From Octopus vulgaris (Eukaryota): a DNA stretch of 64,000 nt. Positions 8,625-32,337 of this stretch are shown here, piece after piece. The notes beneath the pieces were generated by a model. That model searched no databases and had not been told where the DNA came from. It worked only from the letters and a program-made list of their open reading frames with translations. How positions within the stretch are numbered: position 1 is the stretch's first letter; every line of letters starts with the position of its first letter. The stretch lies in NCBI GenBank assembly GCA_951406725.2, contig OX597834.1, positions 9,982,001 to 10,046,000 on the forward strand. Reading direction: 5' to 3'. Both the position numbers and the translations under genes were made by a program.

Positions 8625-8970
8625 GTCTTTGCACAGCTTCTAACGCTGGAGATGAACTACGATGTCAGTAGTTCACTACCAGTGAACTAAGGTAACACCT
8701 CTTATTTTTCGAGCTCCTTCCGAAGTATAAGAGCGGTTCCAAGCAGTGCTGTTCTCTGCAAGTGCTCCACTCTTATTGCAGCCCCTGTTTGTTCCATGTA
8801 CTTCTCAAGATTTTTACTCACTGTTCCCAGGGCTTCGACAATTATTGGTACTACTACCACCTTTTTCAACAACCACAACTGCTTAACCTCCCAAGCTAAC
8901 CAGTCATATCTATCGACTTTTCTTTTTTCCTTATCGCATACATTGTTGTCAGCTGGGCATGCTATATCTA
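8625..8970 (-). mobile_element. 3' fragment of R4/Dong-type non-LTR retrotransposon (C-terminal restriction-like endonuclease region plus 3' UTR)
   Basis: Translation IDIACPADNNV.DKE..K.DRY..L..EV..LW....VVVVPIIVEALG.V.K.L...LQRTALLGTA.ILRK matches the RLE-LINE C-terminus; flanked on both sides by (ATT)n, the known Dong target. Confidence 0.85.
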
Positions 8971-9788
8971 TTATTATTATTATTATTATTACTAGCAGTA
9001 ATAGCAGCTGCAGTAGTAGTAGTACTAGTAGTAGTAGTAAGTTTTTACGAATCCATATGTTTCTCTTTTCGGAGTGAATTTCTCTTTCAGAAGAAATATA
9101 ATTATATTGGTCTGTATTTATTGCCGAAATCATGATGTTTTTAATTAGAGAAGATGAAAATATATTCTTGACAGAGAGTTCAGTCGACAAACTTCAGCGA
9201 GAATTAAATGGAGGCGATCTATTTATTTTCAGCTCTTATATATTGGTTGCGTCAATCAATGGATTAAATTATCAACAGAAATGTGATAGGATTTATTATC
9301 ACTTTTATTTACTGTTGAATAACAGTAACAAAATCTTGCTTAACTATTTGTTTGTGTTGATAATAATTAGACATATTTAAGTACTATTCCAGTTACCCTA
9401 TGATCAAAGGTTTTGCGATTTCACCATTTCCTTCTTCGTACGAAAGGAATATTTTGAGTTATGGTTTCTGTCTTTAATTAAGAATCTAATGTTTGGTTTG
9501 AGGCAGATTTCTTTGCTTTTTCTAGCATCACGACACTACAATTTACAATGTATGTCCTTGAGAGAAATATGTTTGCTATTCATTGTGGATCAAATGCAAG
9601 CTTATTCTCTATCACGCTGGATCGAATAATTTCAGATAAAATTGACTTGTATTTCAGAAAGCCGTAAGGCAACGTAGAATATCATATAATGAACTATAAT
9701 GATTTAATAAAGACTAGGTTGCTAAACTAACAAATCAAGCATTGCTCACTCAATGGCCTTTGTCCTTTCAGTAAAATCTAACAATTGC

Positions 9789-10035
9789 GGAGGCGCGTGG
9801 CTTAGTGGTTAGGATGTTGAACTCATGATCGTAAGGTTGTGGTTTCGATTCCTGGAATGGGCGATACGATATGTTCTGGAGCAAAACACTTCATTTCACG
9901 TTGCTCCAGTCCACTCATCTGGAAAAACTGAGTAACACTGCGATGGACTGGCGTCCCGTCCAGGTGGGAAATTTCTACACCATTGAAACTGGAAAGCCGG
10001 GCCCATGCGCCTGGATAGGCTTTAAAAGGGCCCAT
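9789..10035 (+). mobile_element. tRNA-derived SINE, family C (monomer 1 of a dimer)
   Basis: ggaggcgcgtggcttagtggttagg...ggtttcgattcc; gcaaaacacttcatttcacg core; gatggactggcgtcccgtccag tail. Confidence 0.9.
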
Positions 10036-10046
10036 TTATTATTTGG

Positions 10047-10292
10047 TGGAGGCGCGTGGCTTAGTAGTTAGGATTTCAGCACCATAATCGTAAGATTGTG
10101 GTTTCGATTCCTGGACCGGGTGGTGCGTTTTGTTCTTGGGCAAAACACTTCATTTCACGTTTCTCCTGTCCCTTCAGCTGGCAAAAATGAGTAACACTCC
10201 GATGGACTGGCGTCCCGTCCAGCTGATGAACACATACGCCATGGAAACCGAAAAACTGGGCCTATATGCCTGGCTAGGCTTTAAAAGGACGA
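10047..10292 (+). mobile_element. tRNA-derived SINE, family C (monomer 2 of a dimer)
   Basis: Same head, core and tail directly downstream of monomer 1. Confidence 0.9.
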
Positions 10293-15959: not shown

Positions 15960-16295
15960 TCTATTTATCTATCCGCTCAGTCGAAGTCGACTCTCGGTTA
16001 CTCGTTGGATCAGTGTCCTCCGGTCAGTTCTATCCTGGGCTGCTTCTTTCAGATTGGCTATGTCCATTCCGGTATCACTCTTCATGGTGTCAAGCCAGCG
16101 GGTTTTTGGTCGGCCTTTTCCTCTCTTGCCACTGACCATTCCGAGCATGATGTCCTTCTCCAGGGATTTTCTCCGCGTAATATGACCGAAATATACCAAT
16201 ATATGCTTGGTGATCCTAGCTTCTAGCGACATTTTCGGCCTGATCTGCTTAAGCACATCTCCATTGGTGAACCTCGCTGTCCATGGAATCCGTAA
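15960..16295 (-). mobile_element. 3' fragment of RTE-clade LINE (ORF C-terminus)
   Basis: LRIPWTA..TN.DVL....YFGHITRR.SLEKDIMLG.V.GKR..GRPK.RWLD....D is the typical RTE C-terminal region; short (ATAG)n-like tail. Confidence 0.88.
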
Positions 16296-16654
16296 AAATA
16301 CCAACACACACATTGTTAAATGCACTCGCATTCACACGCCGATTCATATACCAAAAGTACTTTCTCATGTCTAATCCCAAATATTTGGATCTGTAGTCAG
16401 CACTGCTTGTCTATGTAACATACGCCATGAATTTAATGGCTGCGATGCTTACAATTGTATCTCAAGCTATATACTATTTCTGTCTTTGCCAACATTTTTA
16501 GCGAATAATATTTTTAGTGAATGTATTCTGAACATGAAGTTTTCATGAAGCCAAGAAGGAATAAGGATCATCCCATTTTAGATCTATGAGATTCTGACAG
16601 CTGTGTTTCACAAGACAGCTAATATAACTTAGATGTTTATATGAATCAACGAAT

Positions 16655-31569: not shown

Positions 31570-31615
<46 letters not shown>

Positions 31616-31728
31616 ACACATATATATATATATACATATACATACATATATATATATATACACGTATATATACATATATATATATATACACGTATATATA
31701 CATATATATATACACGTATATATACACA

Positions 31729-31762
<34 letters not shown>

Positions 31763-31796
31763 CACACACACACACATATATATACATATATATATA

Positions 31797-31830
<34 letters not shown>

Positions 31831-31864
31831 CATACATATATACATATATATATATACACACACG

Positions 31865-31900
<36 letters not shown>
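31560..31900. repeat. Complex (TA)/(CA) microsatellite
   Basis: Directly visible. Confidence 0.95.
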
Positions 31901-31958
31901 ACATTATTGGTGAATTGAAGAAATGGAGCTGAACGCAGATTGAACAGAAATCGTTTTA

Positions 31959-32047
31959 TTTCATTCTACACGTGTTTCGAAAGGCACAAATTACCAAAAT
32001 CCGATGGAATAATGGGACCATATTGTGTCTTTCTCTTCAGGAAGAAA
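31959..32047 (-). ncRNA. Type I hammerhead ribozyme, best-preserved copy, within a ~200-bp (TA)n-flanked element (31900-32100)
   Basis: Minus strand uuucUUC-CUGAAGA-GAAAGaCACAA...UUGUGcCUUUC-GAAA-CACGUG-UA-GAAugaaa, then AATAAA: canonical core, stem II 10 of 11 pairs, palindromic stem III, GUA triplet. Confidence 0.82.
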
Positions 32048-32337
32048 ATAGGAAATCCGTTGGAAAAACAAAAACAGAACAGAGGCGGAGCAAAAACAAA
32101 TATATATACATATATATCATATTTTTTCACTTCATGTACCTACATATAAATGTATACACACATGCTTGTTTCTTCCTGTCTAAATTTGTATATCTACCTC
32201 TAAATCAATCTCTCGCCCTCTGTCCAAATTTTCCGCTCTATTCCTGCATATATGTATATGCGTCAGTACGTGTTTTCTGTCTGTGTGTGTGTGTGTGTGC
32301 AAACGCATACGTATGTATGTCTGTAAAATTATCTACC

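What the first reader, a model, noticed from the sequence alone, without database searches (positions are those of the whole stretch)
31900..32100. Near-perfect canonical hammerhead in a ~200-bp stand-alone element
The minus strand gives UUC-CUGAAGA-[GAAAGaCACAA/UUGUGcCUUUC]-GAAA-CACGUG-UA-GAA, then AATAAA within a few nt. All catalytic nucleotides are intact, stem II is long, and the 6-nt palindrome CACGUG is suited to intermolecular stem III formation. This is the best candidate for an active ribozyme in the window.
Basis: seen in the sequence. Interest (0 to 1): 0.7.

Follow-up and report, generated by a model that had tools for sequence, protein, structure and literature searches.

The report
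Hammerhead end of young Penelope retrotransposon
The motif has every letter of a self-cutting hammerhead RNA, but it is the cut-short tail end of a very young jumping gene with over 800 such ends in this genome, a known arrangement; it likely cuts only slowly and in pairs, and sister copies suggest that each insertion is copied from the element's RNA into both ends of a DNA break.

Summary
The hammerhead is there (minus strand, core 32040-31967, complete, the only intact one in the window). It is not a stand-alone element. Window 31900-32101 is the 5'-truncated 3' end of a 3.6-kb Hydra-clade Penelope-like retrotransposon (895-aa RT plus GIY-YIG-like ORF) inserted in (TA)n. A 29-nt piece spanning the cut site occurs 813 times exactly. 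Across 18 subfamily copies the core is fixed, stem II covaries and the loop-III palindrome stays self-complementary, so it is a dimer-type ribozyme, predicted weak as a monomer. This copy was reverse-transcribed straight through the cut site. Sister insertions follow a strict rule: 49 of 50 two-armed insertions have one arm ending about 67 nt and the other about 223 nt after the cut, and both arms share alleles (35 of 35). About four to five times more arms than expected start at the cut site, a possible footprint of cleavage in cells, without a matched control. Hammerheads in these elements are published, and this scan noted the same layout on other DNA of this genome. Cleavage is untested.

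The parts
31900..32101 (-). Whole insertion: 5'-truncated single arm of a Hydra-clade Penelope-like element, positions -135 to +67 around the ribozyme cut site
   Evidence: Exact match to the unit in L032 over 135 nt upstream and 67 nt downstream of the cut; 191 bp 100% identical at the top 40 places listed
32041..32050 (-). Stem I, 5' strand (UAUUUUCUUC); inner pairs conserved, outer pairs not
32034..32040 (-). Catalytic box CUGAAGA (C3-A9)
   Evidence: fixed in 18 of 18 copies except N7 in one
31979..32033 (-). Extended stem II and loop (55 nt); 11 basal positions, one A-C mismatch
   Evidence: 88% of cells paired and 3 of 11 pairs changed on both sides in 18 copies
31975..31978 (-). Catalytic box GAAA (G12-A15.1)
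31968..31975 (-). 8-nt palindrome ACACGUGU; predicted intermolecular helix III
   Evidence: duplex -10.3 kcal/mol; central pair CG 2, UG 8, UA 8 in 18 copies
31966..31967 (-). Predicted cut site, after GUA (H17 = 31967)
   Evidence: position in the hammerhead core; not tested at the bench
31957..31966 (-). Stem I, 3' strand (GAAUGAAAUA)
31955..31960 (-). AATAAA, possible polyadenylation signal overlapping stem I
   Evidence: seen by eye just after the cut in 17 of the 18 aligned copies; function inferred
31900..31910 (-). Proximal 3' end of the element (site P, +57 to +67), inferred start of reverse transcription, joined to (TA)n
   Evidence: commonest proximal end among sister copies
31573..31899 (.). 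(TA)n target tract below the insertion; a shorter TA run lies above 32101

Best explanation
This is the truncated 3' end of a young, high-copy Hydra-clade Penelope-like retrotransposon, and its hammerhead is likely a slow ribozyme that needs a second copy (and perhaps the element's protein) to cut. Shown: the element is a 3,624-bp unit with one 895-aa ORF starting 267 nt after the cut site; it sits in (TA)n; inserted arms end at two fixed sites, P (mostly +62 to +70) and D (+216 to +223); two-armed insertions are head to head with one P and one D arm that carry the same alleles. Inferred: the element's endonuclease breaks both strands in (TA)n, the reverse transcriptase starts inside the RNA at P on one broken end and at D on the other, each cDNA runs towards the 5' end and stops early, and the two are joined. 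Single arms such as this one are events in which one cDNA was kept. Most templates were uncut (or religated) at this hammerhead, because most arms, this one included, run through the cut site; roughly one arm in twenty starts at it, which may record cleaved templates. At this locus the motif is probably a passenger.
For: Unit, ORF, tandem array. 813 exact matches of a 29-nt piece from stem II across the cut (421 + 392, control 0). 19 of 112 scored RT matches lie in an 899-codon open frame. Hydra motifs RW, DKT, divergent RT4, CxxC-E-N-CxH and likeness by eye to Hydra-1_Obim. Ends. Arm rule: 49 P/D, 0 P/P, 0 D/D, 7 single P, 7 single D in 62 loci; also 7 of 7 two-armed loci of a sister subfamily (query favours D arms) and 3 of 3 in further subfamilies. 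Arms concordant at site -40 in 35 of 35 pairs (0.51 expected); arm differences 42 in 13,770 bases against 1.2% between insertions; P reaches further 5' in 27, D in 19, equal in 3, so neither arm is a fold-back copy of the other. Two internal RT start sites, cutting and extension of both strands, and a protein-assisted, dispensable hammerhead were shown in vitro for a lizard element (PMC11167929). Covariation.
Against: No cleavage, transcript end or expression was shown; the public runs found are contigs only, none on record as RNA. Pfam and the solved-structure search name no domain in the 895-aa protein; RT and endonuclease rest on motifs and alignment. One two-armed insertion (L061) has an arm ending at +5 and fits neither class. 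One of 13 polymorphic sites (-475, beside a T run) was discordant in 3 of 4 pairs and one (-483) in 1 of 7. Allele sharing could also come from one active source per cell or from later homogenisation of the arms. Outer stem I pairs are not conserved (61% of cells over 10 pairs) and RNAalifold predicts a competing hairpin over the core in all 18 copies. The CG to UG step in the palindrome could be plain CpG decay.
Confidence: 0.8

Rival explanations
1. It is a stand-alone, non-autonomous retrozyme or SINE-like unit of about 200 bp that spreads by itself as a circular RNA.
For: The window copy is about 200 bp, bounded by TA on both sides, and has a type I hammerhead with a palindromic loop III as in animal retrozymes (PMC7229834 passages).
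Against: No tandem repeat of a short unit: the only tandem period found is 3,624-3,625 bp. 5' ends of 112 arms are scattered from -3625 to +186; none of the 34 loci examined shares the window's 5' flank. The sequence continues into the ORF-bearing unit in other copies.
Confidence: 0.03
2. The hammerhead cuts efficiently, the unit-length RNA is ligated to a circle, and reverse transcription round the circle makes the insertions (model of Cervera and de la Pena).
For: A four-hammerhead array has three full units that differ by no substitution and at most 2 gap positions. Arms cross the cut site freely, as they would on a circle. Four long D arms stop between -3328 and -3617, just short of the upstream cut at -3625.
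Against: Only 2 insertions examined exceed one unit (L075, the L031/L032 array); a read-through transcript of a tandem source or DNA-level duplication explains them too. Arms that start at the cut point to linear ends. No circular RNA was shown. In the lizard element, catalytic mutants inserted normally in vitro.
Confidence: 0.2
3. The hammerhead does not cut in cells; it is kept as a structural or protein-binding element (for example an RNA dimerisation site or a block on the overlapping AATAAA), and the excess of arms starting near the cut comes from palindrome-guided joining or stalling of the reverse transcriptase.
For: Two 8-nt palindromes lie at -17 to -10 and -9 to -2. Another 5'-end hotspot lies at -177 to -158, far from any cut (13 of 112 arms); against that density the excess at the cut is weak (17 expected, P 0.03 for 26). 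8 of the 30 fetched rows start at -4, not at 0. No RNA reads began or ended at the cut in the lizard element.
Against: The catalytic core is fixed while its surroundings drift, and the cut triplet varies only between GUA and GUC, both of which fit the NUH rule (recalled). Many starts lie at 0 or -1, and in 7 of 27 insertions both arms start within -4 to +1.
Confidence: 0.25

Closest known systems
Hydra clade of C-terminal EN+ Penelope-like elements, e.g. Hydra-1_Obim, Hydra-1_Ajap (Craig et al. 2021, PMC8557442; passages, section 11, supplement searches and part 2 of 59 seen)
   Same: Single ORF, RT before endonuclease, RW and DKT motifs, divergent RT4, CxxC and CxH around the conserved E and N, (TA)n targets, sense-strand type I hammerhead with palindromic helix III near the 3' end, inverted 5'-truncated arm.
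   Different: Longer unit (3.6 kb against under 3 kb) and protein (895 aa against about 700) through S/N-rich inserts; the CxCX5C linker is reduced to one cysteine; stem II region of 55 nt, longer by eye than in any Hydra row of the paper's File S2; a different hammerhead sequence from Hydra-1_Obim; distance between the two ends about 155 nt against the 30-40-bp tail.
Poseidon element PAc of Anolis carolinensis (Frangieh et al. 2024, PMC11167929; parts 1-2 of 4 read)
   Same: Two internal RT start sites downstream of the hammerhead that define the tail; both target strands cut and extended; AT-rich targets; uncut RNA is the main template.
   Different: Here both sites lie upstream of the start codon, 155 nt apart, and the genome shows the two sites used one per end in 49 of 50 insertions; PAc data are in vitro and found no reads at the cut.
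Minimal and palindromic-helix-III hammerheads of metazoan Penelope-like elements (Cervera and de la Pena 2014, PMC4209133; parts 1-2 of 4 read)
   Same: Type I motif in the terminal repeat, long helix II, palindromic helix III, mostly found as single motifs from truncated copies, dimer-type, low activity expected.
   Different: Much longer stem II loop; no extra unpaired base after A9 in this subfamily; near-identical copies as in the recent Drosophila virilis invasion rather than highly varied ones.
Animal non-LTR retrozymes (Cervera and de la Pena 2020, PMC7229834, passages; Li et al. 2026, 10.64898/2026.07.22.740005, part 1 of 5)
   Same: Type I hammerhead with weak, palindromic helix III working better as a dimer.
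   Different: Retrozymes are non-coding tandem repeats of 170-400 nt; this sequence is a piece of a coding 3.6-kb element and has no short tandem form in the loci examined.

Membership tests
Type I hammerhead ribozyme | Core CUGANGA, GAAA, NUH in order, with three helices | tested here: met
   fixed in 18 subfamily copies
Type I hammerhead ribozyme | Helix II and helix I supported by covariation | tested here: met
   stem II 88% paired, 3 pairs changed on both sides; the inner six stem I pairs mostly kept, the outer four not; related sequences inflate such counts
Type I hammerhead ribozyme | Stable helix III within one molecule | tested here: not met
   probability 0.02 for the C15.2-G16.2 pair; hammerhead fold -12.8 against best fold -16.2 kcal/mol; palindrome duplex -10.3: dimer type
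Type I hammerhead ribozyme | Loop II to stem I tertiary contact | not tested
   no model built for the 55-nt stem II
Type I hammerhead ribozyme | Mg2+-dependent self-cleavage at the site | not testable with these tools
   needs transcription; indirect genomic hint only
Type I hammerhead ribozyme | Match to an Rfam hammerhead model | tested here: not met
   the long stem II is the likely reason (inferred)
Penelope-like element, EN+ | One ORF with RT and C-terminal GIY-YIG endonuclease | tested here: inconclusive
   895 aa with YRDD and a VYQ...YVG..R..E..N end that aligns with 11 relatives; Pfam silent for this protein, 1 of 12 aligned members hits GIY-YIG at E 0.0033; 1 of 106 homologues carries PF00078
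Penelope-like element, EN+ | 5' truncation, partial tandems, inverted 5' arm, tail on one end | tested here: met
Hydra clade | RWK-like and DKT motifs, divergent RT4, no CCHH, CxxC and CxH around E and N | tested here: met
   RWL, DKT, MGSSDSA, CNLC..SE..N..CPH against section 11
Hydra clade | CxCX5C linker | tested here: not met
   one cysteine left; present in 10 of the 11 aligned relatives, the 11th is partial
Hydra clade | (TA)n insertion preference and canonical hammerhead | tested here: met
Hydra clade | Placement inside the clade on an RT tree | not tested
   no tree with named Hydra proteins was built; likeness to Hydra-1_Obim judged by eye
Naiad clade | N-terminal endonuclease, DKA, no canonical hammerhead | tested here: not met
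Non-LTR retrozyme | Short non-coding unit in tandem, one hammerhead per unit | tested here: not met
   only a 3,624-bp coding period was found

The most novel reading that the evidence does not exclude
The hundreds of near-identical insertions record the reaction in living germ cells: one element RNA is primed at two fixed internal sites, one on each end of a double-strand break in (TA)n, and the hammerhead does cut a minority of templates, leaving arms that begin at the cut site. That would be genomic evidence for cleavage in vivo by a Penelope hammerhead, which the in vitro study could not find, and this family (19 open-frame copies) would be a ready system to test it.
Probability: 0.4. Interest if true: 0.55.

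Novelty: new member of a known kind. Interest (0 to 1): 0.33.

Why it matters
The motif itself is ordinary for its class. The family is useful because it is young and abundant: its insertions turn the known 'tail on one end' into a strict one-P-one-D rule with shared alleles, which fits the two internal start sites found in vitro, and they hint that the hammerhead cuts some templates in cells. The role of hammerheads in Penelope-like elements is stated as unclear in PMC8557442. The long stem II also shows why Rfam misses these motifs.

Tried and rejected
Rfam: no hammerhead match. Pfam on the ORF and on its alignment, and the solved-structure search: no domain named. Sequencing runs: no RNA holder listed; four contig sets cover most of the unit and show a head-to-tail joint, but contigs give no ends, strand or level, so they are not used as evidence. 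Naiad, my first guess, was dropped on domain order and motifs. Fold-back copying of one cDNA was rejected because neither arm is nested in the other. The short tandem retrozyme reading was rejected. A genome-wide profile of arm starts at neighbouring positions was not obtained, so the excess at the cut rests on a baseline from loci already held. A look-up of earlier findings by this sequence returned nothing. Paper searches listed no paper on this family or on arm starts at the cut site of a Penelope hammerhead; only listings were seen for papers not cited, and most subscription papers and Repbase or Dfam were not searchable. Supplements of PMC11167929, PMC4209133 and the preprint were not seen and may hold tail lengths or end counts that bear on novelty.

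Full report
Observation. The minus strand at 32050-31957 reads as a complete type I hammerhead: stem I strand, CUGAAGA (32040-32034), a 55-nt stem II with 11 basal positions and one A-C mismatch, GAAA, CACGUG, UA with H17 at 31967, and the second stem I strand, overlapped by AATAAA at 31960-31955. It is the only intact-core hit on both strands of the window; 1 of 100 simulated windows gave a hit. Stem II folds better than shuffles (z -2.17), the whole 106 nt does not (z 0.09). Rfam has no match.

Not stand-alone. A search of the own genome (2.8 Gb, animal; earlier scan notes call it an octopus, not tested here) gave 901 candidates, the top 40 places 100% identical over 191 bp. A 29-nt piece from the end of stem II across the cut site occurs 813 times exactly, control 0. 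Four hits on contig C1 are spaced 3,624-3,625 bp apart; the unit holds one 895-aa ORF that starts 267 nt after the cut site. The window copy is positions -135 to +67 of that unit, 31900-32101, between TA runs. Of 112 scored RT matches, 19 lie in an 899-codon open frame, so the family is young and probably still active (inferred).

Family. The protein has YRDD, RWL, DKT, a divergent RT4 and a C-terminal VYQ...YVG region with CxxC and CxH around E and N; it aligns at 30-37% with 11 relatives chosen from 106 homologues. These are the features listed for the Hydra clade (PMC8557442 section 11), and it resembles Hydra-1_Obim by eye, whose hammerhead is a different sequence. It departs from the clade in length and in losing the CxCX5C linker. 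Pfam and the solved-structure search name no domain; no tree was built.

The ribozyme across subfamilies. From 45 further loci I aligned 17 distinct related hammerheads, picked to span the subfamilies, with the window copy. The core is fixed but for N7 in one copy; the cut triplet is GUA or GUC. Stem II is paired in 88% of cells with 3 of 11 pairs changed on both sides; the inner six stem I pairs mostly hold and the outer four do not; the palindrome is paired in all cells, its centre CG in 2, UG in 8 and UA in 8. The sequences are related, so these counts are not independent events, and CG to UG may be CpG decay. In one molecule the stem III pair has probability 0.02 and the hammerhead fold costs 3.4 kcal/mol against the best fold, while two palindromes pair at -10.3 kcal/mol. 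A competing hairpin over the core is predicted in all 18. This matches the dimer-type, low-activity motifs described for metazoan Penelope-like elements (PMC4209133).

How copies are made. I mapped 62 loci: 55 of the 56 clusters on C1 listed (the tandem array was treated apart) and 7 of the 8 listed on C2. Arms end at two sites, P (mostly +62 to +70) and D (+216 to +223), both followed by TA. Counting arms of at least 88% identity that end in those two classes, 49 insertions are head to head and all 49 have one P and one D arm; 7 P and 7 D arms are single. A 50th two-armed insertion (L061) has an arm ending at +5 and was left out of the count. The rule held in 7 of 7 two-armed loci among 25 of a sister subfamily, found with a query that favours D arms, and in 3 of 3 in other subfamilies. 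The arms of one insertion share alleles (35 of 35 at -40, 0.51 expected; 42 differences in 13,770 overlapping bases against 1.2% between insertions; two of 13 sites showed discordance), and neither is nested in the other (P reaches further in 27, D in 19, equal in 3). I infer that both ends of a break in (TA)n prime on RNA from one source, one at P and one at D. A tail on one of the inverted ends is published (PMC3846280 passages; PMC8557442), and two internal start sites with extension of both strands were shown in vitro (PMC11167929). The tail here is about 155 nt, not 30-40.

Does it cut in cells? The window copy and most arms run through the cut site, so their templates were uncut or religated. 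A search for copies whose upstream match breaks within 4 nt of the cut gave 36 rows. Of the 30 fetched, 26 are clear arm starts at -4 to +1, 2 are ambiguous and 2 are internal deletions; in 7 of 27 insertions both arms start there. Six rows were not fetched, three of them with identical letters on one contig. The density of arm starts at -100 to -25 in the held loci predicts 6.6 rows; the density of the strongest other hotspot (-177 to -158) predicts 17. So there is an excess of about four to five times over background but only a weak one over another hotspot; two palindromes lie next to the cut, 8 rows start at -4, and no matched profile at neighbouring positions was obtained. Scaled up, about 50 of roughly 1,000 arms start there. 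Four long D arms stop between -3328 and -3617, short of the upstream cut at -3625, while two insertions pass it; the three full units of the array differ by no substitution. Cleavage of a minority of templates is plausible but not shown.

This locus. The copy has no ORF and 135 nt upstream of the cut. No transcript was shown (searches give contigs only). It is most likely a passenger.

Verdict. A real dimer-type hammerhead in the truncated end of a new family of a known clade. Earlier notes of this scan, read after the mapping, describe the same two-ended layout, long stem II, missing zinc finger and starts at cut sites for Penelope-like families on other DNA of this genome; they are unchecked notes and not support. 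Interest 0.33.

Noticed in passing
window + 23567; - 44574, - 28018, - 20108 (first base of the core): Four more minimal hammerhead-like motifs, each with one mismatch in the CUGANGA box; three share sequence and look like decayed ends of another Penelope-like family.
   Followed up: no
L032:8916-9740 (-): A 274-aa piece of a different Penelope-like ORF with a weak GIY-YIG match (E 0.00067) beside the tandem array.
   Followed up: no
L032 3345-3614 (-), unit positions +160 to +263: A 13-bp stem closes just before the start codon and encloses the D site; its arms are nearly invariant in four subfamilies. A second hairpin lies between P and D. Candidates for the protein-binding site.
   Followed up: partly
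L125-L149: A sister subfamily about 80% identical to this one is itself young (98-100% identity, 1,841 candidates), so at least two related families spread recently.
   Followed up: partly
L130:1087-1200, L133:384-488, L139:2298-2414, L153:331-419: Unrelated hammerhead-like motifs with the same kind of 8-nt palindrome and long stem II sit in neighbouring TA tracts.
   Followed up: no
unit positions -177 to -158: Hotspot of arm 5' ends (13 of 112) at short inverted repeats, often with both arms ending there.
   Followed up: partly
L042, L034, L095, L123: Separate insertions of this or a sister family lie side by side in the same TA tract.
   Followed up: no
window + 3212, 6360, 53123, 59139; - 47161; 9789-10288: Copies of dispersed SINE-like repeats (one pair in tandem, period 259); their GAAAC..GTA matches lack a hammerhead core.
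   Followed up: no
window 8702-9193 (-), 15969-16331 (-): Short frames that look like ends of LINE-type elements (recalled likeness, no search).
   Followed up: no
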